Positions 5,939 to 33,600 of a stretch of 64,000 bases of DNA are shown in pieces; position 1 is the stretch's first letter; every line of letters begins with the position of its first letter. The notes below the pieces were generated by a model. That model was given only the letters and a program-made list of their open reading frames with translations, was not told the origin of the DNA and made no database searches. Source of the stretch: Catajapyx aquilonaris (Eukaryota); NCBI GenBank assembly GCA_000934665.2, contig KZ538006.1:248001-312000 (forward strand). The letters run 5' to 3'. The position numbers were made by a program, and so were the translations under genes.

Positions 5939-6679
5939 AGGACCTGGGGGTCAATGCTGCAGCTCCCTCCTCTTAACTTTTTCCTACACATTTGAAGCTT
6001 AATTATTATTATTCTGATCAATAAATAAAATCCAGTTAGTATACCCACATTGTTCAATATATTGTCATGCACTGCGCAGTAGCGAAATTACGGTAAATCG
6101 GCTCTGTAGCTATAGCTGTTGAAGTGAGCCTATGGGAAGGTTGTACAACAATGGAAGTCAATTGTTGCCCTCTCTCCAACAATCCCCGTCCTGTTGGCAA
6201 GCTCAACATGTGAACCTGACTCTCCTTGAGCCTCGTATCCCTTAGTACTTATAAGTGAATGTTGGATTGGCCAGGTCCCCATTGGCTGCTGGTAATGGTC
6301 GTATGAAATCATGGATTTCAGATGTATTATACCAACTGCCTTCCGTTAGGGAAGCTGTGGTTTGCTCCGGACATCTGCTTCCAGGGTGACCCGCTTTTTA
6401 GTTGGAGGCTTATCTCTCAGGATGTGTAGGTGTAGGCAGGGTGGAAAAAGGCTACACGTGACAATATCCCGAAGGTCAAACACTTTTTTTTGCAGATTTG
6501 CCATACTTGACTCATCTGAGCAATTCAGCAATTTTCCAGGGTGTGTCGGATGTCAAGCTTTGTTCTTATCAGCAGCAAGCAGGGAAAAACATCCTCATGC
6601 AGTAGGCAGGCAGCTTGAAACAGTAGCAGCAGTGCCTTCCTCGCAACAGCATAAAAGGTTCTTGGATAGCGTTAGCATC

Positions 6680-8371
6680 ATGATGAAGATCCTTGTGATA
6701 TGCACTGTCCTGTTGTGTGCAAGTGAGTATTTTGCCAATTACTTTTTACGCCATCCTTACGACTATTAAGTAGACAGGCAATTTTATTCGCTAATATCGT
6801 ACTTTGGCTTATTAAAATTACTTTGGCTTATTAAGACAGTAGTTGTCTTCCCAGAGTGTGATTTGCAATTATTTTTAGCAGCCAGCTCAGCCCAGACTAT
6901 TCCGCAATGCATATGGAGCATCCCCCGGCAGATCGCTCAGCTTGACGACCCAAGTGTCACCCTGGTACAGCAATGCAAGTAAGTTGGGATTTCATGTCTG
7001 TCGCATTTCATTTTTACAATAAAAATTGCTGGGTTTTTGGCATCAGATAATGAAAACAGGCATCTAATTGGCACTAACGAGATCGAGGGGTTATTCACTA
7101 AGGGTAGTCCTTGTATACCTTTTTAAGTAGTCCGAGATAGTCCGGGTAGTCCATGTAAGCAAAAAATGTAAGTGAATAAGCCCTCGAACAAGATATGGAA
7201 AGAACAACAACAACAACAACATCACGACATTTCCCTATGAGGGGTAGTCAGCGATGAAGGGAGACGCAAGCTAATCCAACATATGAACTAATAAAACTCA
7301 TGAGAATAAACCTAAAAACAACCTGTCCCACCCCCCACCCCTGCCCACCTCAGACATCACCTTATCCTCAGACATATTTACCTATTTACCCATCTGCGAT
7401 ATTATGCTGCGATTATTATTTACCAATAAAGAACATGTAATGAATAATAAGTAATCAGTGTGCATGTTCTTCACCATCAGGATTGCTCGAGATATGTTGA
7501 CCTGTGTGGATGAAGCTGTGGAGAACGATTACATTCCTGTACAAGTCAAATTCTTGTACAACAACATGGTCAGGTCACCAGTTTGGAATGAAATTCACGT
7601 GAGTTCGCTTTCATATGCAAGTATTTTTGTCTCTTTAGAAAGTTTTCAGTCAAACTTCATTGCCACATTTTTACTTAGCACTTTGTAGCCGAGCACTGCG
7701 TGAACTGGTGCTCAAAATGAAGATTATTCCCATTTCCCAAAAAATTGGCGTTAACAATTTACGTACTTAGAACTAGTGTATACTTTTTTTACAATTTGGG
7801 AAGGGGGAATAGTTGCACAGCGGTAATATTTCTTCCCACCCATTCGATCCCGGCCCAAGTTTTTCTTCCTGTTATTGTCTGGATAAGCAAGTAAGCTAAA
7901 CCAAAGCACGTGCAAATCAGTAAACTCCACCACAATGCTGTTACTATGCCCAAACAAGCAGGATTGAGGAATTTGACACTGCTGTGATGAACTCATGCAG
8001 GATACATTACTGCAACTCAGCAACTAGTGCCCTCCCACTCATTTTCCAGGATGACACATTCATTTTCTCCCCCATTCTTGTGTGGCTCGTGGACACTCTT
8101 CCTACCCATTGCCATGTCTATTAAATTCTGCACCACACACGATTTTTCTGGCAGTATGATTCAGGCCGACTGCTTCTTAACAAGTGTTGGCAATTTGCAA
8201 GTCCGTAGCCAAAATGTGGTCATGAAAGCAATCCAGTATCACGTAACAGGTTCTTGCTCTTTCCAGGAATCATGTGGTGTGGCTTATGGAGGAGCAGCAG
8301 CTTCACCCACGCCATTGATGCTCATCTTGCCACTGGCTCTGATGCTGCTCTGGCGAAATCTGCAGCACTAA
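6680..8371 (+). CDS. Unrecognised small secreted, probably GPI-anchored protein, tandem copy 1 (~121 aa)
   Basis: Exons 6680-6722 (MMKILVICTVLLCA), 6879-6978, 7481-7598, 8267-8371 (ESCGVAYGGAAASPTPLMLILPLALMLLWRNLQH*). Intron phases 1, 2, 0 join into one ORF in all three copies. AATAAA near 8622. The exon 3 to last-exon junction is inferred. Confidence 0.7.
7083..7187. mobile_element. ~100 bp MITE-like element with 17 bp terminal inverted repeats in intron 2 of copy 1
   Basis: tcgaggggttattcact ... agtgaataagccctcga (1 mismatch), with internal gtagtcc repeats; present in all three gene copies. Confidence 0.6.
7207..7427 (-). mobile_element. Retroposon-like insertion specific to copy 1
   Basis: Absent from copies 2 and 3; flanked by 8 bp direct repeat aaagaaca (7199-7206, 7428-7435); (CAA)n run at left end is a (TTG)n 3' tail on the minus strand. 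Confidence 0.65.
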
Positions 8372-9473
8372 AGTGTGTCGCAGATGTGTTCATTTTTACT
8401 CGGAAGAATGACGCAAGAGTGATTCAAGATGCCACGTTATGAATATTCAGAATGCAAGATTTTGCAGTGTTCAGTTTATCCAGTTCAAATGCATGTTGAC
8501 GGAAGTCATGCACATGCTCACCCTACCTGATCTTCAAGTGCAGGAGCTTAGGGTAAGACGGGCAGATATCTCAGCCTACTTGTGAGACACAGGGTACATA
8601 TGCATACTCGGATAAGTTTTTAATAAAAAAGCCTTACAATATTTGCACTTCATTTTGTTACTACCTCATACCGATTTGATCTAATTGTGCTCATTTATTT
8701 CCCGAGCTTACAATGCTGTCCACTTGAGCATTAGTATTGTCTGGGTCTGGGTCAAGTTGTGAAGTTTGTGATTTTTAATTATAATTGAATTATAATTGGG
8801 GGGGGGGTTAGTGCTTCCACCTCCAAATGGGCGTATTATCACACAGACCTTTATTTAGTCATGTGTGTACATTTGGAACCTATTTTTGAAGCGCCCGGGC
8901 CCACGGGCAGGATGACAGGTGGGGATGTGCAAAGTGCAGCGCGCTGTCGTGGGTGAGGTCATTTTCTTCTTCAGTTAAAATCAAGTTCCAAAGTTTTTTC
9001 TTTGGGATCCAGCATGTAAGCTAAAAAATGAGCTGGTGTCAGAGCCATTTTATATCTGTTTGTGAATTATTTTTTTTTGACGTCTTTGTTTTTAAGCTTC
9101 AATTTCCATTTGAAGCTTCTTCCACACATGTACTGACTCAGAAAATAGTGCAGTTGTTTTTCTGCACACCATCGAGGGCAATCACAATAGCCTTCAAACA
9201 ATTAAGCATATACTCTACATTTCGTTTCAATACAAAATTAGAAACTTGTGTTTGCACTGCTTTATCAATAGTTTCACAATTTTCTTCACAAATTTGTAGC
9301 AAAGTCGTCCAGGCAAGCTACCATGGTATTCCAAAGCACTTCACTTCGGATAACAAGTTTTGGGGCACCAGATTTTCTGTAACATGCATAAGCAAAGTGG
9401 TTGTTTCTGAAGTACTTGATTACATTTAGCACATGTTTTTTTACATTTGGAAACTGAAAATCATTTGCTAGCA

Positions 9474-10104
9474 CAGCGGTTCCCAAACTTTTCTGAAGCG
9501 CAATCCACTATTTACAACAACTAATTTTCGCGACCCACCTAACTGGGGTGGGAGTAATATAATAATAATTTACCCCGTGATAGAGCCATTGGCTCTCTTA
9601 GGGGGGGAGTTCATCCCATTTTTTTTTTTGTCAGGAACTCTTTGCTTTTTACTTTTTGCTTCGCTTTTTAGGAAGGGATAGGGATGGAAGGAAGCGGCTG
9701 TGGCCTGTTAATTACGGAAACAACTCCGGAATTTTCCTGGAGGGACCGTGGGAAACCACAGAAAACCACGGTCAGAGTTGCCGGCCCCGGGATTTGATCC
9801 CAGGACCTCCCGATTAGCAGTCTGGCTCCTTAACCCCTACACCAACCTGCTTCGGTTAACTGGGGTGGGAGTATGTAGTCTATAACTCTTATCGTCATCA
9901 TTATTAGGCCTACTACGTTTTAAAATATACTGTATAAATGGAATATAATTTTCCCACCACGCCTATCCCTATAGAGCTTAGCATAATTATGCCATAATAT
10001 ATTATGGTGCTCATTTCAGGTCTTCATACTAATAATGCAAATTTTTCTAATTCTTCTACGCCCCACCAGAAATCGTCTCGCGCCCCACACTTTGGGAACC
10101 GCTG
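9474..10104. mobile_element. hAT-type non-autonomous element (MITE)
   Basis: TIRs cagcggttcccaaa ... tttgggaaccgctg; perfect 8 bp TSD tgctagca at 9466-9473 and 10105-10112. Confidence 0.9.
9557..9856 (-). mobile_element. tRNA-derived SINE, apparently full length
   Basis: Minus-strand head accgaagcaggttggtgtaggggttaaggagccagactgctaatcgggaggtcctgggatcaaatccc has A-box and B-box-like motifs; (ATT)n tail; 17 bp TSD taactggggtgggagta at 9540-9556 and 9857-9873. Confidence 0.88.
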
Positions 10105-10250
10105 TGCTAGCAGATAATTTAGTACACATGTGCTGAGCATCCATAAGTTATGAGTTATGACATCCAAATCCCCATGATTTTCAGGAAAAAAGACACATTT
10201 TTTGCAACGTTGGCAGCATTATCTGTAACAACAGAAACCTTGCGCTTTAA

Positions 10251-10512
10251 AGGGACACTCCACTCAAAATGCAAGTTGGGCTCTAAAAATCGGGCAAAAA
10301 ATCCTGATTCCGAAGGTGCAATCGGTTTTTTTCTACGCGGAACAGAAAAGCCAGGACGAGGCGTTAAAGACTCAGAATTTGCGTCGTCTGCTAATGAGCT
10401 GCCCCGCCAGCCCAGTCCGCCACCGCCGTGAGCGCCGCCACTGGGCGCTAGGCGAAAGTGTTTAAGTTCTGAAAGTCGGGTCGGGTCAAGAGGTGGCGGG
10501 ATAAACCTGTGG
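10251..10512. mobile_element. Possible left end of a Kolobok-like DNA element, cut by an assembly gap
   Basis: TTAA (10247-10250) followed by agggacactcc, exactly where transposase similarity stops; no matching right TIR before the N at 10513. Confidence 0.35.
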
Positions 10513-10513
10513 N
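10513..10513. other. Ambiguous base or assembly gap (N)
   Basis: Literal n in the sequence. Confidence 0.95.
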
Positions 10514-10683
10514 GGAGTATACAGTGGAATCCTGCCTCTAATACTATTTTGAGTACACAAAAGCGATTTTACCGTAAACCGTACATGTCATTACCGTACA
10601 CCGTACAAAGGAGTAAATTTTACCGTCCGCTCCCACATCAATTACCGTACAGGTTGGCAACGTTGTAATGTTGTATGTTAAAG

Positions 10684-10711
10684 GGGGATTTCCCGTGGAG
10701 TGGGGATTCCC
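10684..10711. promoter_or_regulatory. Pair of NF-kB/Rel-type sites upstream of copy 2
   Basis: GGGGATTTCC (10684-10693) and GGGGATTCCC (10702-10711), ~340 bp upstream of ATG 11050. Confidence 0.55.
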
Positions 10712-11049
10712 CCTTCAGCTCTGGAAGGGAAATTTTTAGAAAAGTAATTGGGATTACTTTTCAGTTTAAAAACCACTTGATTTAAACCGTGGTTTAAACC
10801 AACGTGGTTTAAATAGCAAGTGTGGAAAAAGACTATACGTGACAATATCCCCGAGGGCCAAGCACTTTTTTTTTTTTTTTTGTGCAGATTTGCCACAGTA
10901 CATGACGCATCTCAGAAGTGTCAAGAATTTTCCAGGGTGTGTGGGATATATGTGAAGCTTTGTTCTTGTCAGTACTTAGCGAGCGGGAAACAGTAGCAGC
11001 AGTGCCTTCCTCGCAACAGCATAAAAGGTTCTTGCTTAGCGTAAGCATC

Positions 11050-12491
11050 ATGATGAAGATCCTTGTGATATGCACCGTCCTGTTGTGTGCAAGTGAGTGT
11101 TTTGCAAATTACTTTTTACGCCTTCCTTGCATCCTTACGGCTATCAAGTAGACAGGCCATTTTATTCGCTCAAAACGTACTTTGGCTTATTAAAACAGTA
11201 GTTGTCTTCAGAGTGGGATTTGCAATTATTTTCAGCAGCCAGCTCAGCCCTGAACATTGCGAAATTGATAGGGAGCCTCCGCCAGCAGACCTGTCAGCTT
11301 GAGGACCCAAGTGTCACCCTGGTACAGCAATGCAAGTAAGTTGGGATTTCATGCCTGTCGCATTTAATTTTTACAATAAAAATTGCCTCTCTTTGAAATC
11401 CATTGATTTCAGCTTTTAAGGCATCAGATAATGAAAACTTGCATCTAATTTGAACTAATGAGATCGAGGGGTTATTCACTAAGGGTAGTCCATGTATACC
11501 TTCGTAAGTAGTCCGGGGTAGTCCATGTAAGCAAAAAAATGTAAGTGAATAACCCCTCGAACGAGGTAGTGAAAGAACAGGTACGAGTTGAACATGTAAT
11601 GAATAATAAGTAATCAGTTTGCATATTCTTCACCATCAGGATTGCTCGAGCTGCGTTGACCTGTATGGATAAAGCTATGAAGTGCAATTATGTTCCTGGA
11701 CACATCAAAGTCTGGTACAACCACATGATCACGCTACAGGCTCGGAATGAGACCCATGTGAGTTCACTTTCATATGCAAGTATTTTATCTCTTTAGAAAG
11801 TTTTCAGTCAAACTTCATGCCACATTTTTACTTAGCACTTTGTAGCCGACCACTGTGTGAACTGGTGCTCAAAATGAAGATTATTCCCAAAAAATTGGCG
11901 TTAACAATTTACGTACTTAGAACTTGTGTATACGTTTTCTTACAATTTGGGAAGGTAGCCCTGGCCCGGGTTTTTCTTTCTTTACTTGTCTGGATAAGCA
12001 AGTAAGCTAAACCAAAGCACGTGCAAATCAGTAAACTCCACCACAATGCTGTTACTATGCCCAAACAAGCAGGATTGAGGAATTTGACACTGCTGTGATG
12101 AACTCATACATTACTGCAACTCAGCAACTAGTGCCCTCCCACTCATTTTCCAGGATGACTAATTCATTATCTCCCTCAATCTCGTGTGGCTCGTGGACAC
12201 TCTTCCTATCCATTGCCATGTCCATTAAATTCCGCACCACACGCGTTTATGATTTTCCGTGGTAGTATGATATGGGCCGATGATTGCTTCTTAACATGTG
12301 TTGGCAATTTGCAAGTTCGTATCAGAGAGTAAAGCCAAAATGTGGTCATGAAAGCGATGTAGTGTCACGTAACAGGTTCTTGTTCTTTCCAGGAAATGTG
12401 TCGCGTGGCTTACGGAGGAGCAGCAGCTTCACCCACACCATTGATGCTCATCTTGCCACTGGCTCTGATGCTGCTCTGGCGAAATCTGTAG
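11050..12491 (+). CDS. Unrecognised small secreted, probably GPI-anchored protein, tandem copy 2 (~119 aa)
   Basis: Exons 11050-11092, 11236-11335, 11640-11757, 12393-12491; same intron phases as copy 1; open frame ending LMLILPLALMLLWRNL*. Confidence 0.7.
11464..11560. mobile_element. MITE-like element with perfect 17 bp TIRs in intron 2 of copy 2
   Basis: tcgaggggttattcact ... agtgaataacccctcga. Confidence 0.6.
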
Positions 12492-13393
12492 GACTAAAGT
12501 GTATCGCAGATGTGTTCATTTTCACTCAGGAAAATTAAGCAAGAGTGATTTAAGATGCCATGTTATGAATATTCAAAATGCAAGATTTTGCAGTGTTCAG
12601 TTTATTCAGTTCAAGTGTATGTTGATGGAAATCATACACATGCTCGTTTCCCTGATCTTCAAGTGCAGGAGCGTAGGGTAAGATATCGCAGCCTACTTGT
12701 GGGACACAGGGTACATATGCATACTTGGATTAAGTTCGTAATAAAAGCATTACAATATTTGCACTGCATTTTGTTACTACCTCATACCGATTTGATGAGC
12801 TCATGTATTTTCCGAGCTTACGATGCTGTCCACTTGAGCATTAGTATTGTGTGGGTCTGGGTCAAGTTGTGAAGTTTGTGAATTTGAATTATAATTCAAT
12901 GGCAAAACCACATTTAAAAAAGTAATTACTGACATCATTAGCTTTTAATCATGTATATTTTAATGCTTCATCATTAACCTAAATGCACATACTATACACA
13001 GAAATCCTTCACTCCTTAACCATTACTTATTTGGAATATTTTCCGGAGTTTCGCACCTGAACAGTCGGGAGCCTCACCCATTTAATTTCAGATGACAAAT
13101 GTAAACAGAAATTATGACATTGCATTGCATTGCATTTAAAACCGATGTAATGAACCCAAAATTATTTTTCCCTCTCATGTTCAGGAGCTTATAAAGCTAA
13201 AGTACTTCAACTATAGATCTTAAACTTAAATCTTAAGACTGAAACTTCCACCAACACACACATTTGTCCACGTATGATTAAATTAGTCAGAGCTGATCGC
13301 ATATTTTCATTCAGGAATCATTGTGCTCATGTCAACACAACACAGTAAATACAGTACTGGCATTATCTGAAATCCAGGATATCGAACCCTTCC

Positions 13394-14106
13394 TTAATTC
13401 CTCCTCCGCCTGACCCTGGATATTCTCCAGGCATTGGGCTCTTCATACTTGTTGTACAGCGGCTCCAGCCTCTGGTTCTTCTGGAATTTGCTGAGCTTAG
13501 TTGGATCGGAGAAGCGGAAGAAGGCAGGCGCAAACTCTACCAGCCCTTTGGGGTCAATGGTTGTCACCTCCCGCATGTACTCCTTAGTGGTCAGCACAAG
13601 CTCATGGTACACCACCCACTCCGACTGGCGGTTGAACAGTGCTGAGGACGGATGAATGTACACCACCTGAAAAGATCAGCAGGGATTTAAAATCCATGTT
13701 CACGATCAGCAAATGTACAAAATGATCGAAAGTACCATACCTGCGAGTCCACAAGTGTCCTGTACCCTTCCTGCGGATCTTTCTTGGCAGCGTTTCAGAA
13801 GAACCCTGAGCAGACCACCTTTTGAACACGTACAGTGTTCTTTCCGCATGACACTACATCTAGCTTGTGACGATCCATGATGCCCATCTCCCAGCAACTG
13901 CTTGCGAACATCCTGCGCCCTCTTCAAGGTCCGTATCTGAATGAAGTTCTCACTTCTCATAGCACCATGCATTTGAAAAATTGTTGTTTTTCCACGAGTT
14001 GTAAACGGCCAACAAAGTGAGATGGTCCCCCTCAGGTTGGTTGAACTTTGCCTTCTTCTGGTCGGCCAGAGCCTGCTTGTCCTTTGGACGGTAGAACACA
14101 TTCTGG
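13394..14106 (-). pseudogene. Truncated unprocessed DHX8/Prp22 pseudogene (last exon, last intron, part of penultimate exon)
   Basis: Copy of 17400-18098 with CGA>TGA at 13797-13795, two 7 nt insertions (~13886 and ~13953), W>G, P>S and K>Q changes in the last exon, and no 5' part. Confidence 0.93.
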
Positions 14107-14542
14107 GCAACATTCAAATTTTTTATAGTTAAACAATATTATTGTTTAAGTGTAAATAATAAAATAACAGACTTGAATGGTGCCCACAATTGTACTGTAT
14201 ACAAGTGGGAGGTTAAAAAGTACCTGAACCCTGTACATTATTATAATATTAATGGATGGTCCTTAAGATTATTCAACATATTTGTGTAAATTTAATTTGA
14301 GAATATATTACTATTACTAGAAATTGCATAAGCAGTAATATGCACTGTACGGTATAGCCTACTACTTTGTAAAAAAAATTAAACTGAGATTCATTAAACA
14401 TCATACCTTCATGATGATCATCTATACTTCCATATCTACATATGCACATTTTGATCATATGTCATTTTTCATTCTGGTTACTTCATCACAGGCGATTTTT
14501 ATTATGCAATACGGTGCAATGCATGATTGGATATTGCTAAAG

Positions 14543-14570
14543 GGGGATTTCCCGTGGAGTGGGGATTCCC
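14543..14570. promoter_or_regulatory. Pair of NF-kB/Rel-type sites upstream of copy 3
   Basis: GGGGATTTCC (14543-14552) and GGGGATTCCC (14561-14570), identical to the copy 2 pair; GATA motif (cttatc) near 14788. Confidence 0.55.
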
Positions 14571-14902
14571 CCTTCAGCTTTGGAAGGTAAATTTTAGCAG
14601 TAATTGGGATTACTTAATTCATTTTAACGTGGCTTAAATAGCAAGTGTGGGAAAAGGCTATAGGCCTACGTGACAATATCCCGAGGGCCAAACACTTTTT
14701 TTTGGGGCAGATTTTTTGCCATACATGACGCATCTCAGCGACTGGTGTCAACAATTTTCCAGGGTGTGTCGGATGTCAAGCTTTGTTCTTATCAGCAGCA
14801 AGAGGGGAAAAACATGCTCATGCAGTAGGCAGGCAGCTTGAAACAGTAGCAGCAGTGCCTTCCTCGCAACAGCATAAAAGGTTCTTGGATAGAATTAGCA
14901 TC

Positions 14903-16463
14903 ATGATGAAGATCCTTGTGATATGCAGTGTCCTGTTGTGTGCAAGTGAGTATTTTGCTAATTACTTTTTACGGCTTCCTTACATCCTTACGACTATCAA
15001 GTAGACAGGCAATATTAGCAATTTTATTTGCTAATATCGTACTTTGGCTTTATTAAAACAGTAGTTGTCTTCAGAGTGTGATTTGCAATTATTTTCAGCA
15101 GCCAGCTCAGCCCTGAAGATTCCCATGCTGAAGATTCCCATGCCGAAGATTCCGAAATGGATACCGAGCCTCCGCCAGCAGACCTCTCAGCTTTGGGACC
15201 CACGTGTCACCCTGGTACAGCAATACAAGTAAGTCGGGATTTCATGCCTGTCGAATTTCATTTTTCCAATAAAAATTGCCCCTCTTTGAAATCCATTGAT
15301 TTAAGATTTTAAGGCATCAGGTAATGAAAACTTGCATCTAATTTGAACTAATGAGATCGAGGGGTTATTCACTAAGGGTAGTCCATGTATACTTTCATAG
15401 GTAGTCCGGGGTAGTCCATGTAAGCAAAAAGTGTAATAAGTGAATAACCCCTCGAACGAGATAGGGAAAGAACAGGTATGAGTTGCACATGTAATGAATA
15501 AGAATAATAAGTAATCAGTTTGCATATTCTTCACCATCAGGATTTCTCCACATATGTTGGCCTCTATGGATGAAGCTGTGAAGAGCGATTACATTCCTCG
15601 ACACATCAAACCCTTGACCAAAGACATGATCACGCGGTTCACGCGGTTCACGCCACAGGTTCGGAATGAAAGCCATGTGAGTTCACTTTCATATGCAAGT
15701 ATTTTGTCTCTTTAGAAAGTTTTCAGTCAAACTTCATTGCCACATTTTTACTTAGCACTTTGTAGCCGAGCACTGTGTGAACTGGTGCTGAAAATGAAGA
15801 TTATTCCCAAAAAATTGACATGAACAATGTACGTACTTAGAACTAGTGTATACTTTTTCTTATAATTTGGGAAGGTGGAATAATTGCACAGCCATAATGT
15901 TTCTTCCCACCCATACCAGCCCAGGTTTTTCTTTCTTCTCTTGTCTGGATAAGCAGGTTAGCTAACCCAAAGCATGTGCAATCAGTAAACTCCACCACAA
16001 AGCTGTTACTATGCCGAAACAAGTAGGATTGAGGAATTTGTGACATTTGACACTGCTGTGATGAACTCATGCAGGATATGTTACTGCAACTCAGCCACTA
16101 GTGCCCTCCCACTCATTTTCCAGGATGACGAATTCATTATCTCCCTCAATCTTGTGTGGCTCGTGGACACTCTTCCTATCCATTGCCATGTCCATTAAAT
16201 TCCGCACCACACGCGTTTATGATTTTTTCTGGTAGTATGATATGGGCCGATGATTGCTTCTTAACATGTGTTGGCAATTTGCAAGTTCGTATCGGGCAGA
16301 GTAAACCCAAAATGTGGTCATGAAAGCAATGCCGTATCGCGTAACAGGTTCTTGTTCTTTCCAGGAATTACGTGGTGTGGCTTATGGAGGAGCAGCAGCT
16401 TCACCCATGTCATTGATGCTCATCTTGCCACTGGCTCTGATGCTGCTCTGGCGAAATCTGTAG
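14903..16463 (+). CDS. Unrecognised small secreted, probably GPI-anchored protein, tandem copy 3 (~135 aa, Cys-free mature region)
   Basis: Exons 14903-14945, 15099-15228, 15541-15676, 16365-16463; +30 nt and +18 nt in-frame repeat expansions relative to copies 1 and 2; AATAAA at ~16683. Confidence 0.7.
15357..15455. mobile_element. MITE-like element with perfect 17 bp TIRs in intron 2 of copy 3
   Basis: tcgaggggttattcact ... agtgaataacccctcga. Confidence 0.6.
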
Positions 16464-17399
16464 CACTAAAGATGCGTTCATTGCAAGAGTGATTCAAGAT
16501 GCCATGTTATGAATATTCAGAAGGCAAGATTTTGCAGTGTTCAGTTTATCCAGTTCAAATACATGTTGACGGAAGTCATACACATGCTCACTTTCCCTGA
16601 TCTTCAAGTGCAGGAGTGTAAGGTAAGATATTGCAGCCTACTTGTGAGACAGGGTACATATGTATACTCGGATTAAGTTCGTAATAAAAGCCTTACAATA
16701 TTTGCACTGCATTTTGTTACTACCTCATACCGATTTGATGTAATTGTGCTCATTTATTTTCCGAGCCTACGATGCTGTCCACTTGAGCATTAGTATTGCC
16801 TGGGTCTGGGTCAAGTTGTGAAGCTTGTGAATTTGAATTACAATTCAATGGCAAAACCACATTTAAAAAAGTTATTACTGACATCATTAGCTTTTATTCA
16901 TGTATATTTTAATGCTTCTTCATTAACCTACATGAACATTAACCATACTGTACACAGAAATCCTTCACTCCTTAACCATTACTTATCTGGAATATTTTCC
17001 AGAGTTTCGCACCTGAACAGTGGTGAGCTTCACCCATTTAATTTCATGATGACAAATGTAAACAGAAATTATGACATTTCATTGCATTTAAAACCGATGT
17101 AATGAACCCGAAATTATTTTTCACTCTCATGTTCAGGAGCTTATAAAGCTAAAGTACGTCCACTATGGATCTTAAACTTAAATCTTAAGACTCTAACTTC
17201 CACCAACACACACATTTGTCCACATATGATTAAATTATGCAGAGCTGATCGCATATTTTCATTCAGGAATCATTTTGAATGGTGTCCATGGATGTTAACC
17301 TTTTGAGGCAACCAAATCCTGAAGCACTGTCCTCATGTCAACACAACACAGTAAATACAGTACTGGCATTTTCTGAAATCCAGGATATCGAACCCTTCC

Positions 17400-22092
<4,693 letters not shown>

Positions 22093-22387: not shown

Positions 22388-23543
22388 ATGGCGGGGTGGC
22401 CCAGGTGGTGTCCTGCAGCCTCGCCGGAGGGTGGGTTGAGTCTGAGGTGCTTCCTGTGCGGGGTTTCGTCGGCTGGGTTGCTCCTGGCTGCCGGCGCTCT
22501 CGGTCCTTGGTTCGTGGATATGCTGACCTGCTGCAGCCCGTACCTGCTCGCGTTCCACTTGGCCTTCTTCAACGGGGCCATCTACGCGCTGTTGAAGGGG
22601 CATGACTATCAGGTACAGGCACACGGCTACACTGCATCAGGTGCACACGGCAACACTGCATCAATGTCATCACCTTTGTCTTGTTTTCCAGGTTGGTGTC
22701 CGAGCAGGCTTCCTGGGTTGGGCCTTTGCGCAGGGCCTGTACGTATCCTTCCTGGCGCCTGAGTCGTGGCGGCCGTTTGGTTACTACACGTGTGTGATGG
22801 CATTCTTCCACTACTCCGAGTACCTGACCACTGCGTTGATCAACCCCCATTCCCTGGCTCTTGACTCGTTTCTGCTCAACCACAGCCGAGAGTACTGCAT
22901 CGCTGCGGTTGCCAGTTGGTGCGAGTTTTGGCTCGAGAGGTGGCTCTATCCAGGTCAGAATAATTAGCCGTAAAGCCACCTATTGAGTAAAATCATACAG
23001 CGAAATTATACAAACCATGTTTTTTTTTTCAGGTATGAAAGAGCACTCGTATGTCAGTATCATAGGTGTGCTGATGTGCGTTGTTGGTGAATTTCTTCGC
23101 AAGTTGGCTATGCTTACGGCCAAGAGCAACTTCAACCATGTTATCCAGAGTGTTAGAGCGGATGGGCACACTCTTGTTACTCATGGAGTGTATGGGTATT
23201 TCCGGCACCCCAGTTATGTTGGCTGGTTCTACTGGTCCATTGGCACGCAGGTACTGTTGTTTTATGTGTTGAAGTTACATTTCTTCCTCCAGGAAACATG
23301 GTTTAATCTCACTGTCATATGCACTTTGATGATTAAAATAATTTCCTTTAAAATATTTAGGTAATCCTATGCAATCCGCTCTGTGTGGTGGCATACACAC
23401 TGGCCTCGTGGCAGTTCTTCCGGGAACGTATTCATGTGGAGGAAGTGACGCTTCTCAACTTCTTTGGTGACGAGTACTATTACTATCAGAAGAAAGTTGG
23501 CACTGGTTTGCCATTCATCCAAGGGTACCGAGTCGAGCTATGA
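22388..23543 (+). CDS. ICMT: Protein-S-isoprenylcysteine O-methyltransferase (Ste14)
   Basis: Exons 22388-22612, 22692-22953, 23033-23250, 23361-23543; FFHYSEY, SFLLNHS, LVTHGVYGYFRHPSYVGWFYW, RIHVEEVTLLNFFGDEY, TGLPFI. Confidence 0.95.
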
Positions 23544-27677: not shown

Positions 27678-30600
27678 TTAGGACGATGGTTGTGGTGCTG
27701 GTCTCCTCAGCCTGGCTCCAGGTCGCTTACCTCTGATACGTTGTTGCAAAAGGGCAAGTCCTCTAGGGGCCTCGCTGGATGGTGGTGCATCTTCCTGGGT
27801 TTCGCCTGTTGGTGAGAGTAAACAAGAATGTTACAAAAAAAAAAACACTGGCTTTTTTCTTCTTCTTTTTCCACCATTGTTGATGGGCAGTCGAGTGCAG
27901 TGGAAGGACAACCAGCAAGGGGGCTATTATTGTTGTTGCTTGGTGGTCATTAATTTTACAGTTACTTCCAGACGGTTTTTTTTATGTAGCGTGACGGAAC
28001 CTACTTTTTGTAGGTGACATTTTGTCAAATGTTCTTCGGTTATTTTGTTATTAAAAAAAAAAAACGATGCAAGAATGCGGTTAATTGAGGTCTATGGGTG
28101 ATATCATCACGAGCCTTGGGAGATAAAAATAGAATAGGTGCAGTTAAGGTTTTCCTTTTTTAGACGCTAATTAAATTCGGCGTCTTGCTGTTGCTGACAC
28201 ACAAAAATACTTACGCCTGCTTATAAATATACCAGCTTTGTACATACTGACATGTTTATTGTTTTTCGTCCCTGGTGAAGTGTATGGACAAAAATATTAT
28301 GCCGAAAATATTGTCAATGTTACAAGTTCAAGGATATTTTTGTGTAGTAAATATTTTGTTGAATATTACAGATTTGACAGTGCATTGTAACAACATTATG
28401 CGTTGCACATAATTAGAGAGGTTTTTTGCTTCAATTAGTTCAACATTAGGCTTTTGAAGCCATATCAGGAAATCTGCTCAATATAGGGGGTGATAGGACC
28501 TTTTCTCCCCAAAAACTACTTCTGGATCATGAGAAACGCCATGTCCATTAACCGTAGCCTTCACACCAGACTGCGTTACCTCGTAACAACTGATGTAACA
28601 AGAATTGGCGAGGTTTTTTTTTGAAGTAATGTAGCACCCACACAAGCGGACGATAAATGACAAATCCTTATAGGAGAGGAAATTCCCTAGACGCCGAGAA
28701 ATTCTTCCTTTTTGGCCTGAAACTTTCACTTTCTAAAGAGCAAGGCAGTGACAGCTCAGAGTAATAGTTTTATTACCTATTTTTGACGTAATGATGAAAA
28801 AGCATGCTACGTGCCTCGTGACACATGCTTGATTCTAATTCTACTTTCTATAACTGCAGCTTCAATTACGGATGGTAAAAATAGATTAAACTTAGAAAAA
28901 CCCTAAGGGCGCAGGTCTTCGTTCGTTAAATGGAAATGATTGTTTCAATACGAACCTGATTGTACTGGTATCTCTGTGCTGTCGACTTCTGCACCACTGT
29001 CGTCGTGTTCGGATTCTTCTGACGTAGGCGCCGGAGTCGACGACGTTGGTGGTCCTTGTCCCACCCTCCTCCTGGCCAAGAGTCCTCCACCTCTTCGGCG
29101 CTCTAGAGGAATAGGTGACGTTGGTGGAGGTGTGCTGCTGGCGCTGGCCAGTCTCGCTCTGTGCCTGAGACGACTTATGAGACCTCCTCGACCTCCTGGA
29201 GGTGACACAGCGGTGTCTGGCTGCGACTCGCCGGATTCTTCCGATGGTGCTTCAGTACCGGCGTTTTCGTGTTCTGTAAATTCAGACAATTTGTCACCTG
29301 TTGATATAGAGATGATCATATGAGCGGGCATACCTTCTTCTTCGCTGCTTGGAGCAGTTGTGGTGGTAGATGTGGTTGCTCTTCCTCTGGTGAGGAGCTG
29401 GAGTCGAGGGTTGGGTCTTGCCCCTGGTGGGCTCCTGCCCCGATGCCGGATGGGTGCTGATGTCGACGAGGGTGCGACTGATGGCTCAGCATGGTCGCTG
29501 TCTTCATCCTCGCCTGCAGGAGTAGTGCTGCTTGCACCAGGTCGTCGACGAGGGTTCAACCTTCAATATTTAATCGGTGCGTTTATACTGTATAACCATC
29601 CTAAACAATCAAGGTCAATGTACTTACCTGTGTAGGGCGGATCCGTCGGTCCTGGAAGGCAGCCTGAACCTGTTTCCTCCTCCTCCTCTGGGTGGTGCCC
29701 TGAAAGAAGGCGCCGCAGTGCTGCTGACCACCGCGTCCTCATCCGCCGGCGTCGATGACGTCTGCTGGCTGAACCTGTTCCGATTGCTGTACGCGCCAGG
29801 TCTCCTCAGGCTGGTGCTTCCGAACCGTGGCCTCTCCGTGGTGCTGCTGGTGGTCGACGTCGGTTCGTCGGTGACGCGGCCTCTTGTTCTCAGACTAGAA
29901 CCGTACGCAGGACGTCGGTTTCGGCCGCGTCCAGGGGCAGGAGTAGGCGCTTCTGTGGTGGTAGTGGTCGTGGTGGTGGTTGTTGTAGTGGTTGTCGGAA
30001 CGGTTGTGGTTGTTGGCGGCAGTGTGGTCTCAATGGTTGTGGGATCCTCCGGCTCGGTGGTGGCTCCTTCTTCGTAAGCATCCTCTGGTGCTGGAACCAC
30101 CTGGTTGGCAGTGTCAGACTCGTGGGCTTTGGACAACGCGTAGATGTCCAGCAGTGACTTCTCCAGTGCCGACACACCGCTGGCGTCGGTGGCATTGTCT
30201 CCTTCTTCGGGTACCACTCCCAAGAAGCGGACTGTGGTGTCTCCGTCTGGTATGGCATGGAAGGCCGGTACTGTCGGTCGTGGCAGGTAAGTCGCTCGTG
30301 TTCGCTCCAGACCCGGTTCTTTGCTGTTCAGTGCGTAATCATCATCCTCCAGTTCTCCAGAGTACGACCCAACATCATCGTCATCCTCATACGACGAAGC
30401 GAAGTATGTAGGCAGAGTTGGCCTGCTCCTAGGAGGGAACCGCGTTTGTTGAGGAAGCCGTTCCTCCGGTACCGACACTTCATTAGGCAGCTTTATTCCT
30501 GGAGCAGCAGGAGAAGCAGCAGCATCGACGCTGCGTCCGAAAATGACTTCGTTCTCACCGTTGTATGTCGAAGCAGGTACTCGTCCCCTGTTGGTTGAGC

Positions 30601-33600
30601 CTCGGACTCTTCCTCTGGATGACTCCAGCGAAGTGGACACCCCTTGACTGTCCTCCGCTTCTGATTCCAGTGGATCTGGAGTGATCCTGTTCCTGTTCCT
30701 TGACGACCCCCTGCTTGGTGCTCGTGTTCTGATGGCAGGCTTTGGAGTGGTTGTTGTGGTTGTCGTGGTCGTAGCCTTTGTCGTGGTCGTGGCTGTAGTC
30801 TTAGGCTTACTGGTGGTCGAACTTCGGAGTGTGTCCACTGCTGGTCCGTCGTGGCTGTTGCTGAACGGGTTCTTCTTGGTGGCGCCTTCCTTTCCGGCTT
30901 CATCATCATCGTAGTCGTAGTAGTAGTACACGTACTCGTACTCGTATTCGTCGCCGTTGGGGTTCTTCTTGAGGGTGACTTTTACTGGCTGGTTTTCCGC
31001 CGGCACTAGGAGTTTGTCTTCCAGTGGATTGGACTTGCCTGTTTGGAAGTCATGCTTATCGATGGACTTGCCGAAGAAGAGATTCTCAGCTATCAGACCG
31101 CTCTGACCGACAGTCGACGAAATTTTGTCGCTGAGTGGAGGCTGAGTGGTTGTGAGCACGGGCAATGGAGCTTCGGTGGTGGTCGTCTTGCTCTCATTTT
31201 CGTCTTTGATGTCATCCGGGTGATGAGATGGTAGCACTCCGACATCACCGTCACCTGGCACGAAATCGACATGCTCGACACCAAGACCCGCTTTTGGAAC
31301 CACTTTGACCCCAGTCTCCTCACTGTCACCCGCATCAGTGCTGATCTTCATCACTGGAGGACTTGTGACAACGCTGACCACCGTCACCACCTCCGGCTCT
31401 TCCTTACTGACGTCGACATTCCCCGACACCAAGTCCACCACCGACACATCCTTCTTCCGCTCCTCATCATCCTCATCTCTTCCTGGTCTCAGAATAATGA
31501 TGTCATCTCCAGTCTCGGTGTCGAACTTCTCAACCTGAAAGGTCTCAGGATGCTTCTTGACCATGTCCATGTCCGGCGACGCTTCTGTAGGTACGGCCTC
31601 ACTGTCTTCGCCTAACCGCCTGACTGCCCTGACTGCAGGCAAAGGCTCCTCCGTGGGTCCAAATGCCCATCTGGCATCATTGAGGTCAAACCGGATTGAC
31701 TGTGGTGACGGTACCGGTACCTCAGCCGCCCTGGACTCTGGCTTTTTCTGCTCATGTTTGCTGACTTTTGGAGACGCGCTTCTAAAGATGACAAACTCTT
31801 GCCCTGGGAGAGGTTCGGTGATCAGCTTTGGCTCCTCCTTGGGTAACTTTATGGAATCACTGCCCGGTAGTGTGTCACCTGATGACCCTCGAAGCTTTCT
31901 GGGTGGAAATCTGAACGATGGTCTGTAGTTGTCTTCTTCCTGGCGACTGGAATGCACCAGTGCCAGCAACAAGGTGCTGAAGAGTATCAGTCTGAAATGG
32001 CAAATAATAAGACAGCTATTAGGTTGTTCGCATCGTTATGAAACACCCTGTATACACACTGGCAGTGCCATTCATTTTTCTTTTTCATGTTGTCTGGTAG
32101 TATTCCAACCAGTGCTACAACAATTTATAGCTGTCCCGCAACTTTCTACGCGGTTCTATCAGTGACGCAAGGACGGGGGTTAAATCATCCGGGATACGAC
32201 TATGCGGGCCACCACTCTCCAGGAACAGACCTGTTAATCCTGTTTTTTAAAATTTTTCGAAAAGAAAATCTTCGCACAATTTGTTTAAAAAATAGGGAAG
32301 ACATTCTTCAGGAGAAAATACGTATATGGAGGAGGGAATCACACTTCCTAGAATTGTGGTGAACATGCTGTTGTTGTGTATAGCATGTCAATATATTTTG
32401 GAAATAGTCAGATTGCTGGGGTGAACAATCGTCTTCTGCACAGTATGGCTGGGCCAACCTGTATGTGTAACCAAAAAATAAATATCAAAATTAATTGACG
32501 GCATATATGAGCTTACTTTTAAGTGAAACGTTTGGTGTAACCTGACAAGAAAGTGATTCCACAGTAATCTAGTTTGATTAGACGTGTTGAGACGATTTTG
32601 AAAGGGATTCGCTGAGCTCACCTTGAACCCGAAGATTGGAAAAGTGGAGCGTGTCACTGGGAAAATTTCAGAATACCTTACCGAATACTTTTCCCCAGAT
32701 ATTCTCACCCGAATTCCGTGACCTGCACTTACGCACTTTTTCATTTTTTTAAACCGATATTAATTAGAAGGAGAGCATTGCCCCCTCTTCCCCAACTTTC
32801 CAATTTCAGATTACACGTGCATATAAAAGGCGTAGTCGGAACTATGGCAAAAGCAATGCATGGGAATGTCATGATGCCACCTACCAGTTCAAGTCGCCCC
32901 CCTTCACTTGCCCTTTCGGAATATCTATTGGCTCTCATCTGGTTTGAAGAAAAAAAAATACCTGTTTTGCAGCTTAAACGCATCTTGCATTATGCATCTG
33001 CTGGGGAAAAAACAGTTATTCTCATATATAGGTAGGTTTAACCTTTATGATACAAGATCTGCTGGAAGATGCTATTGTTGACAGAAATTCTGCTTATTTA
33101 ACTGCAAGTATCACTTTTAGTAGTTAAAAGTACTGATACTAAGTTTGTGCCCACTAGCATTATATGGACAAAAAATTAACCTTCTTCTTTCAATGTATAG
33201 TGAGCGCACATTCCCTGCACTAAGCAATTTTTGGCAAACTAATACAATCGTTACTCATGGACTTTTAAAAATACGTAGGCTACAATATTAGATTGGAAAA
33301 ATCGTATGGCACATGTTAGAAAAATGAGTTATTATAACTCAGCTTAATAACCATAACTAAAAATGTGTTTCTTCCTTGTTTTACCACCATTTATTTTGTG
33401 TCTATCAGCATTTGAGGTCATTCTAGAGCCATCCGTGACCCATAGGCACTTTCACTACACGTATATTTTTTAGAGCTTTACTTTGCCAGTGAGATAAAGG
33501 GCGTGACTTCAGTTCATGATCCCGGGATAGAGTATGTACGTGCCCGTGGTTTTAAATCCGGTTGGATATATACGCAAGATGCATTGAGGAATTCGAAGGG

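What the first reader, a model, noticed from the sequence alone, without database searches (positions are those of the whole stretch)
6680..16463. Triplicated unrecognised gene for a small GPI-type surface protein with a hypervariable mature region
Seen: three tandem copies share a 4-exon model (signal peptide, two mature exons, then small residues plus a hydrophobic tail typical of a GPI signal). The ORF track shows only fragments of it. By hand count, exon 3 of copy 1 vs copy 2 has ~30 substitutions in 118 nt: 22 of 40 codons change amino acid and only 3 codons differ purely synonymously. The next ~130 nt of intron differ by only ~4 substitutions and 2 indels, and the signal and GPI exons are almost invariant. 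Established: conserved signal peptide and introns with a hypervariable mature domain is the pattern of immune, toxin and reproductive recognition families under positive selection. Inference: a lineage-specific, diversifying cell-surface recognition or defence family.
Basis: partly seen in the sequence, partly recalled or inferred. Interest (0 to 1): 0.9.

Follow-up and report, generated by a model that had tools for sequence, protein, structure and literature searches.

The report
Triplicated fast-evolving small surface-protein gene
Three neighbouring copies of a small animal gene keep their secretion signal and membrane-anchor signal almost unchanged, while the exposed middle part changes amino acids about three times faster than neutral DNA, as arms-race or recognition proteins do.

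Summary
Window 6.4-18.1 kb holds three tandem copies of a 4-exon gene on the + strand. All splice sites are GT-AG and all frames are open, giving 121, 119 and 135 codons.

Exons 2+3 differ at 16.5-20.6% of sites and the introns at 6.4-9.9% (Fisher p 1e-6 to 4e-5). Exon 3 shows 26-30 differences in 118 nt, against 0-2/46 and 1-2/59 in its flanking intron. For exons 2-3, pairwise dN/dS is 1.7-3.5. My own 3-sequence codon model gives omega 3.4 (LRT p about 0.001).

By rule of thumb each protein has an N-terminal signal peptide. It also has a conserved C-terminal run of small residues followed by a 13-14-residue hydrophobic tail, which fits a GPI signal. No GPI predictor was available.

An RNA-like run holds the last exon and 3'UTR of copy 1. 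No splice junction of this gene was seen.

Single-exon searches found no relatives. The spliced proteins could not be searched.

Verdict: a real, lineage-restricted, positively selected small secreted or surface protein family. GPI anchoring is probable. A recognition or defence role is untested. Interest is moderate.

The parts
6680..6722 (+). copy 1 exon 1: start codon and most of the signal peptide
   Evidence: GT donor at 6723; differs at 1 of 43 nt from each other copy
6879..6978 (+). copy 1 exon 2: end of signal peptide and first variable part of the mature protein
   Evidence: first 60 nt differ at 12-14/60 from the other copies, last 40 nt at 1-5/40
7481..7598 (+). copy 1 exon 3: hypervariable part of the mature protein
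   Evidence: 27-30/118 differences against 0-2/46 and 1-2/59 in the flanking intron
8267..8371 (+). copy 1 exon 4: last 7 mature codons, run of small residues, hydrophobic tail, stop
   Evidence: covered from 8274 by a 360-nt contig of the RNA-like run X5
8372..8633 (+). copy 1 3'UTR, with the only AATAAA at 8622-8627
   Evidence: X5 contig 8274-8633 with 0 mismatches; AATAAA position
11050..11092 (+). copy 2 exon 1
11236..11335 (+). copy 2 exon 2
11640..11757 (+). copy 2 exon 3 (hypervariable)
12393..12491 (+). copy 2 exon 4; AATAAA follows at 12740
14903..14945 (+). copy 3 exon 1
15099..15228 (+). copy 3 exon 2, 30 nt longer through an in-frame tandem repeat (15113-15153, period 15, 2.7 copies)
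15541..15676 (+). copy 3 exon 3, 18 nt longer through an in-frame tandem repeat (15630-15653, period 9, 2.7 copies)
16365..16463 (+). copy 3 exon 4; AATAAA follows at 16683
6540..6679 (+). conserved upstream region of copy 1 (likewise before copies 2 and 3), with CATAAAA 30 nt before the ATG in all three; promoter and/or 5'UTR, start of transcript not known
13300..14113 (-). truncated duplicate of the 3' end of the neighbouring DHX8 helicase gene, carried inside repeat unit 2; shows the array grew by DNA-level segmental duplication and gives a neutral yardstick (1-4% diverged from 17300-18110)

Best explanation
These are three tandem paralogues of a lineage-restricted protein-coding gene in an animal genome, most likely an arthropod. 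Each encodes a precursor of about 120-135 residues.

Inferred processing. The N-terminal signal peptide, about 19 residues, directs the protein into the ER. The conserved C-terminal module is cleaved and replaced by a GPI anchor. That module is a run of six small residues, a 4-residue spacer, a 13-14-residue hydrophobic tail and 3-5 polar end residues. The result is a 76-92-residue polypeptide on the outer face of the cell membrane.

Shown here. The exposed polypeptide has been driven apart between the paralogues by positive selection for amino-acid change. A scattered set of mostly hydrophobic positions is kept, while the rest changes. The changes include a reversal of net charge (-4, +4, +8), gain and loss of all cysteines, and in-frame repeat expansions.

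Inferred from the patchwork of relatedness. Gene conversion or unequal exchange between the copies keeps the promoter, signal, introns and anchor module alike. Selection keeps the mature parts distinct.

Inferred from analogy only. The selective agent is a fast-changing partner, such as microbes or parasites, or mating or self-recognition molecules.
For: Gene reality:
- All 9 introns (3 in each of 3 copies) have GT..AG borders, and all three frames are open.
- The model frame is the only one of six without stops in all three copies, in exon 2 and in exon 3.
- Non-exon DNA carries 21-27 indel events per pair, of which 7-12 are multiples of 3. The exons carry 0-2, of 30 and 18 nt. Both are tandem repeats of period 15 and 9.
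- Only 5.6% of 20,000 neutral simulations kept all three frames open.
- One AATAAA lies at the homologous place after each stop.
- A 360-nt contig of run X5 covers 8274-8633 with 0 mismatches. The same run holds contigs joined across GT..AG introns of the two neighbouring genes.

Selection:
- Exons 2+3 differ at 16.5-20.6% and introns at 6.4-9.9%.
- dS of the mature part (0.07-0.17) matches intron divergence, while dN is 0.25-0.31, so dN/dS is 1.68, 2.61 and 3.46.
- Non-synonymous against intron differences give Fisher p 2e-7 to 2e-8.
- The codon-model omega is 3.4, with LRT 10.3-10.9 and p 0.0009-0.0013 under three codon-frequency settings.
- Exon 3 differences by codon position are 14/10/6, 13/9/5 and 13/10/3.
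- The divergence edges coincide with the exon 3 borders and with the ends of the mature part.

Targeting signals:
- The 9-residue hydropathy maxima are 3.4 at the N-terminus and 2.84 at the C-terminus, against at most 1.43 in between.
- The anchor-signal part differs at 1-3 of 75 nt.
- The general rule for GPI signals comes from the abstract of PMC2289202.

Conversion:
- The copy that is the odd one out changes along the unit.
Against: - No splice junction of this gene was seen. The X5 contig starts 7 nt inside predicted exon 4 and does not bridge to exon 3.
- The small-residue run lies 4-9 residues before the hydrophobic tail, so the likeliest attachment site is 8-9 residues before it. PMC2289202 gives 10-12. 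No GPI or signal-peptide predictor was run.
- Exons 1+4 show no significant purifying selection (omega 0.9, p 0.89). Their sameness could simply reflect youth or conversion.
- Cysteines number 4, 5 and 0 in the mature parts, so there is no conserved disulphide scaffold. The domain may be loosely folded.
- A conserved CATAAAA lies 30 nt before the ATG. If it is the TATA box, the transcript would start at about the ATG, so the 5' end of the model is unsettled.
- The codon model is my own script, not PAML or HyPhy, and uses only three sequences that exchange segments.
- No relatives were found, but only single exons could be searched.
- The region was picked by eye from a scan. A p of 0.001 alone would therefore be weak; the comparison with introns at 1e-7 carries the case.
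Confidence: 0.55

Rival explanations
1. The same positively selected gene family, but not GPI-anchored. The C-terminal hydrophobic stretch would be a membrane-spanning anchor with a 3-5-residue cytoplasmic end, or a propeptide removed from a freely secreted peptide.
For: The hydrophobic run is followed by a charged residue and 2-4 more polar residues. The spacing between the small residues and the tail is shorter than the 10-12 residues of PMC2289202. No predictor was run.
Against: The hydrophobic run has only 13-14 residues with two prolines, which is short for a stable plasma-membrane helix (general knowledge). The conserved run of six small residues just before it has no obvious role in a plain membrane anchor.
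Confidence: 0.2
2. There is no positive selection. The excess divergence of exons 2-3 comes from patches imported by gene conversion from more distant, unseen family members, or from a local mutational hot spot, in a background that conversion keeps uniform.
For: The copies clearly exchange segments. The rest of the genome could not be searched for further members. The immediate intron flanks of exon 3 are more alike (0-4%) than the average intron, as expected after recent conversion of the flanks.
Against: Imported or hyper-mutated DNA would raise synonymous change as much as non-synonymous change. Here dS of exons 2-3 is 0.07-0.17, at intron level, third codon positions carry the fewest differences, and omega is 3.4. 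The divergence edges fall on the splice sites and on the limits of the mature protein, which tracts of conversion or mutation have no reason to respect.
Confidence: 0.08
3. The copies are decaying or never-functional open frames (young duplicates, pseudogenes or non-coding transcripts), and the pattern reflects relaxed constraint.
For: No homologues or Pfam family were found. Exons 1+4 evolve at about the neutral rate. No junction-spanning RNA was seen.
Against: Relaxed constraint gives omega of about 1 and exon divergence equal to intron divergence. It does not give 2.3-2.9 times the intron divergence or omega 3.4. There are no stops or frameshifts in any copy, despite 20-25 substitutions per copy in 216 nt and indel-rich surroundings. 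All splice sites and poly(A) signals are kept.
Confidence: 0.07

Closest known systems
Ly6/uPAR/CD59-type small GPI-anchored three-finger proteins (insect members recalled from memory, not from a call)
   Same: The precursor size is about 120-135 residues. There is an N-terminal signal peptide and a C-terminal small-residue site followed by a hydrophobic tail. The genes have few exons and are often tandemly duplicated.
   Different: The defining set of 8-10 conserved cysteines is absent: the mature parts have 4, 5 and 0 cysteines. None of the 7 exon-coded pieces matched any Pfam family. It is not a member.
Sea-urchin 185/333 (SpTransformer) immune genes (PMC4204807; search listing and start of abstract only)
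   Same: A tandem cluster of small genes with a conserved leader and a highly variable mature protein, with diversification linked to short repeats.
   Different: From recall, those genes have two exons, encode secreted proteins without a GPI signal, and vary by a mosaic of sequence elements. There is no sequence relationship to test here. The phylum also differs.
Mussel MgCRP-I peptides and conotoxin-type precursors (PMC4558851; search listing and start of abstract only)
   Same: A highly conserved signal/pre-pro region with a hypervariable mature region under positive selection, in multigene families.
   Different: Those are freely secreted peptides held together by invariant cysteines. Here no cysteine is invariant, and a membrane-anchor signal is the conserved C-terminal module.

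Membership tests
Ly6/uPAR three-finger GPI proteins | 8-10 conserved cysteines forming the three-finger fold (feature recalled) | tested here: not met
   Cysteines in the mature parts: 4, 5 and 0; none is invariant.
Ly6/uPAR three-finger GPI proteins | match to the Pfam family model | tested here: inconclusive
   0 of 7 single-exon pieces matched any Pfam family at E up to 1. The pieces have only 32-45 residues, and the spliced protein could not be submitted.
GPI-anchored proteins (class) | N-terminal ER signal peptide | tested here: met
   By rule of thumb only: one basic residue, then a hydrophobic core with a 9-residue hydropathy maximum of 3.4, then small residues at -3 and -1 of the presumed cut after residue 19. 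SignalP was not available.
GPI-anchored proteins (class) | C-terminal hydrophobic domain | tested here: met
   A 13-14-residue hydrophobic run with a hydropathy maximum of 2.84, ending 3-5 residues before the stop, identical in the three copies.
GPI-anchored proteins (class) | pair of small residues 10-12 residues before the hydrophobic domain (PMC2289202, abstract) | tested here: inconclusive
   A conserved run of six small residues lies 4-9 residues before the hydrophobic run, so the best candidate site is 8-9 residues before it, one or two short of the stated range.
GPI-anchored proteins (class) | positive call by a trained predictor (NetGPI, PredGPI, big-PI) or release by PI-PLC | not testable with these tools
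Families with a conserved signal and a hypervariable mature part under positive selection (a functional kind, not a homology family) | dN/dS above 1 confined to the mature region, with conserved targeting modules, in tandem paralogues | tested here: met
   Omega is 3.4 (p about 0.001) for exons 2-3 and 0.9 for exons 1+4. The divergence edges fall at the mature-protein limits.

The most novel reading that the evidence does not exclude
This would be a GPI-anchored cell-surface recognition or defence family restricted to one arthropod lineage and not related to any described family. Tandem paralogues share one secretion-and-anchor chassis through gene conversion, while selection drives their exposed 76-92-residue parts to opposite charge (-4, +4, +8) and different length. 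That would amount to a small germline-encoded repertoire of surface binders or decoys, engaged in an arms race with microbes or parasites, or in mate or self recognition.
Probability: 0.3. Interest if true: 0.65.

Novelty: new variant of a known kind. Interest (0 to 1): 0.45.

Why it matters
Small, fast-evolving, lineage-restricted genes are the ones that automatic annotation and homology searches miss. Several immune, venom and fertilisation systems were first found as such genes.

This array is a clean case. Young duplicates have introns, synonymous sites and a co-duplicated helicase fragment as internal neutral yardsticks. Against these, the mature protein alone shows a three-fold excess of amino-acid change, and that excess stops at the borders of the processed protein.

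If the GPI anchor and a binding partner are confirmed, this would add a new type of variable surface molecule in arthropods. It would also be a handy model for how gene conversion and diversifying selection divide a gene between them. If not, it remains one more orphan secreted family.

Tried and rejected
RNA runs:
- No RNA holder is listed on record for the stretch.
- In run X5, copies 2 and 3, exons 1-3 of copy 1 and the introns have little or no cover. I draw nothing from this.
- 9 joints were not shown, so junctions of this gene may or may not be among them.

Whole genome:
- None is held, so further paralogues could not be sought.

Spliced protein:
I stopped that step.
- SignalP-like, GPI, fold and full-length homology tests of the spliced proteins were therefore not done.

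Single-exon searches by window reference all came back empty:
- Exon 4 in the 5.8-billion-cluster collection: 14 word candidates, 0 at E up to 10 (after a too-short query).
- Exon 3: no candidate.
- Exon 4 profile of the three copies against 1,835,955,588 representatives: 0 at E up to 0.001.
- Pfam: 0 of 7 pieces matched.
- These are weak tests, because the pieces are short and the organism's own proteome seems absent.

Other frames and strands:
- An antisense frame of exon 3 looks conserved (omega 0.22-0.28). It has stops in two copies and would need a synonymous divergence of about 50% of sites, far above neutral. It is a mirror effect and was rejected.
- An antisense open frame over intron 2 (111 codons in copy 2) is broken in copies 1 and 3. 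It is chance.

Other empty searches:
- No fourth copy in the 64 kb.
- No Rfam family and no tRNA in 6000-18500.
- Earlier findings of the scan: nothing by place, sequence or words.
- Literature word searches gave analogues but no description of such a family. A nameless family cannot really be found by words, so this is no proof that it is not in print.


Full report
What is there. Between about 6.4 and 18.1 kb the window holds three direct copies of one unit, with starts about 4.37 and 3.85 kb apart. All 9 introns have GT..AG borders and all frames are open, giving 121, 119 and 135 codons. The coordinates are in the parts list. Copy 3 is longer because of two in-frame tandem repeats. One has period 15 nt in exon 2 (15113-15153) and one has period 9 nt in exon 3 (15630-15653). 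No fourth copy exists in the 64 kb. No whole genome is held.

Is it coding? The model frame is the only one of the six without stops in all three copies, both in exon 2 and in exon 3. Non-exon DNA of the unit carries 27, 27 and 21 indel events per pair of copies, of which 8, 12 and 7 are multiples of three. The exons carry 0, 2 and 2, namely the 30-nt and 18-nt repeats. In 20,000 neutral simulations with the observed numbers of substitutions (25, 20 and 22 in 216 nt), all three frames stayed open in 5.6%. Each copy keeps a single AATAAA at the homologous place about 220-250 nt after its stop (8622, 12740, 16683).

Divergence pattern. Exon 3 of copy 1 vs copy 2 shows 30 differences in 118 nt. 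Of 40 codons, 22 change the amino acid and 3 differ only synonymously. The next about 130 nt of intron have 4 substitutions. Over all pairs, exons 2+3 differ at 45/218, 44/218 and 36/218 sites. The introns differ at 88/1026, 106/1075 and 69/1081. Fisher p is 1.5e-6, 4.3e-5 and 4.3e-6.

The edges are sharp. There are 26-30/118 differences inside exon 3, but 0-2/46 just before it and 1-2/59 just after it. In exon 2 the first 60 nt vary (6-14/60) and the last 40 hardly do (1-5/40). In exon 4 the first 21 nt vary (2-6/21) and the remaining 75 nt hardly do (1-3/75). The variable zone therefore runs from just behind the presumed signal-peptide cut to just before the presumed anchor site. That is the processed protein. 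In a sliding scan of the whole copy 2 / copy 3 unit (3442 aligned sites), the exon 3 window has the highest value of the homologous part, 24/100.

Selection tests. By Nei-Gojobori counting on the mature part (codons 20-87), dN is 0.29, 0.31 and 0.25 and dS is 0.17, 0.12 and 0.07. This gives dN/dS of 1.68, 2.61 and 3.46. dS is at the level of intron divergence. Non-synonymous against synonymous differences give one-sided Fisher p of 0.14, 0.037 and 0.018. Non-synonymous against intron differences give p of 2e-7 to 2e-8. Synonymous sites do not differ from introns (p 0.26-0.76).

I also wrote a Goldman-Yang-type codon model on the three-sequence star tree, with 72 codons of exons 2-3. It gives omega 3.40, with LRT 10.3-10.9 against omega = 1 and p 0.0013, 0.0009 and 0.0010 under three codon-frequency settings. 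Exon 3 alone gives omega 2.8 (p 0.02). Exon 2 alone gives an unbounded omega because it has almost no synonymous change (p 0.007). Exons 1+4 give omega 0.9 (p 0.89). Differences in exon 3 fall on codon positions 1/2/3 as 14/10/6, 13/9/5 and 13/10/3.

Because the region was picked by eye from a scan, the p of 0.001 alone would be weak. The comparison with introns is strong enough to survive a genome-wide correction. The script is not PAML or HyPhy, and there are only three sequences.

Controls and rivals. One antisense frame of exon 3 looks conserved (omega 0.22-0.28). It has stops in two copies and would imply synonymous change at about half of its sites, far above the neutral 6-10%. It is the mirror image of the excess of first-position changes in the sense frame.

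The copy that is the odd one out changes along the unit:
- Upstream and intron 1: copy 2.
- Exon 2 and intron 2: copy 1.
- Exon 3: star-like, with 10, 13 and 14 private changes.
- Exon 4: copy 2.
So the copies exchange segments by gene conversion or unequal crossing-over, and yet exon 3 stays distinct in all three.

Import of exon 3 from unseen distant members, or a mutational hot spot, would raise synonymous change too, and that is not seen. Relaxed constraint would give omega of about 1 and exon divergence equal to that of introns.

The proteins (rules of thumb computed; no trained predictor was available). The N-terminus has a basic residue, a strongly hydrophobic core (hydropathy maximum 3.4) and small residues at -3 and -1 of a cut after residue 19. 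The C-terminus has an invariant run of six small residues, four spacer residues and a 13-14-residue hydrophobic run with two prolines (maximum 2.84). It ends in 3-5 polar residues. Nothing in between exceeds 1.43.

This is the general make-up of a GPI signal. The abstract of PMC2289202 gives it as a pair of small residues 10-12 residues before a hydrophobic domain. Here the best site is 8-9 residues before the hydrophobic run, so the rule is nearly met, not exactly.

Cut in this way, the mature parts have 76, 76 and 92 residues. Their net charge is -4.2, +4.0 and +8.0 (pI 4.6, 9.0, 10.2), and they have 4, 5 and 0 cysteines. Copies 2 and 3 have one N-glycosylation sequon each at the end of exon 3. 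The positions that stay the same are mostly hydrophobic. That suggests a small folded core with a changing surface, but this is an inference.

RNA. No run on record as RNA holds the stretch. Run X5, of unrecorded kind and from the same coded organism but another study, holds contigs joined across GT..AG introns of the neighbouring proteasome ATPase gene (4574>4739, 5287>5349, 5713>5796) and of DHX8. It therefore behaves as RNA. It also holds a 360-nt contig that matches 8274-8633 without a mismatch. That is exon 4 from its eighth base through the 3'UTR, ending 6 nt past the AATAAA. No contig bridging an intron of this gene was listed, and 9 joints were not shown. Transcription of copy 1 is therefore supported, but the splicing of the model is not yet shown.

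Homology. As a result, no full-length search, fold or predictor was run on the spliced proteins.

Searches with single exons by window reference found nothing:
- Exon 4: 0 of 14 word candidates scored.
- Exon 3: no candidate.
- Exon 4 profile: 0 of 1.84 billion representatives at E up to 0.001.
- Pfam: 0 of 7 pieces matched.
These are weak tests. Moreover, the best hits to the neighbouring DHX8 exon (606 codons) reach only 93% identity. They are crickets, termites, a cockroach, a damselfly and locusts among the 120 listed of 8000 scored, and none is higher. So the organism is probably an arthropod whose own proteome is not in the collection. 'Unrecognised' cannot be judged, and 'lineage-restricted' is only suggested.

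Context and origin. Upstream lies a proteasomal AAA ATPase gene and downstream, on the minus strand, lies DHX8 (Pfam). Repeat unit 2 carries a truncated copy of the last about 800 nt of DHX8, including its small intron (13300-14113). It is only 1-4% diverged from the real gene end. The array therefore grew by recent DNA-level segmental duplication next to copy 3. Copy 1 is followed by high-copy repeats. No Rfam family and no tRNA lie in 6000-18500.

Comparison with what is known. In size and targeting signals the proteins resemble Ly6/uPAR-type GPI proteins, but they lack the defining cysteines and are not members. In evolutionary mode they resemble the sea-urchin 185/333 genes, mussel MgCRP-I and conotoxin precursors, which have conserved leader modules and a hypervariable mature part. 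I know those from search listings and abstract starts only. This family differs in having no invariant cysteine and a membrane-anchor signal as its conserved C-terminal module. Word searches of the literature turned up no description of such a family. That is no proof that none exists.

Verdict.
- A real coding tandem family under positive selection on the mature part is well supported.
- GPI anchoring is probable, perhaps 55-60%.
- A recognition or defence role is a reasonable guess without direct evidence.
It is a new variant of a known kind of fast-evolving secreted or surface family, and the interest is moderate (0.45).

Noticed in passing
window 13300-14113 (-): Truncated, frame-broken duplicate of the 3' end of the neighbouring DHX8 helicase gene (Pfam OB_NTP_bind). 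It includes the gene's small intron and lies inside repeat unit 2. It is only 1-4% diverged from 17300-18110.
   Followed up: partly
window 16962-20700 (-): DHX8/PRP22-type helicase gene with very few introns. One exon has more than 600 codons, and two small introns (17671-17744, 18203-18286) are shown by a spliced contig of run X5. Its 3' end lies under 300 nt from the poly(A) signal of copy 3, tail to tail.
   Followed up: partly
window 7192-7330 and 9313-10426: Very high-copy repeats, with word depth up to about 158,000 in DNA run X1 against about 31-36 for single-copy DNA. One sits in intron 2 of copy 1 and the other between copies 1 and 2. They are also present in the RNA-like run. No tRNA or Rfam match.
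   Followed up: no
window 29624-32035 (-): Open frame of 803 codons, rich in Thr, Ser and Pro, with long Thr runs (mucin-like). It has no Pfam family.
   Followed up: no
window 46.3-49.5 kb and 61.6-62.9 kb (-): Exons of one or two M13 (neprilysin-type) peptidase genes (Pfam Peptidase_M13_N and Peptidase_M13).
   Followed up: partly
window 6650-6656, 11020-11026, 14873-14879 (+): A CATAAAA motif is conserved exactly 30 nt before the start codon of all three copies. If it is the TATA box, the mRNAs would have almost no 5'UTR.
   Followed up: no
window 22987-23364 (+): Exon of an isoprenylcysteine carboxyl methyltransferase (Pfam ICMT).
   Followed up: partly
window 10513 and 26109: Single N bases in the assembly.
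   Followed up: no
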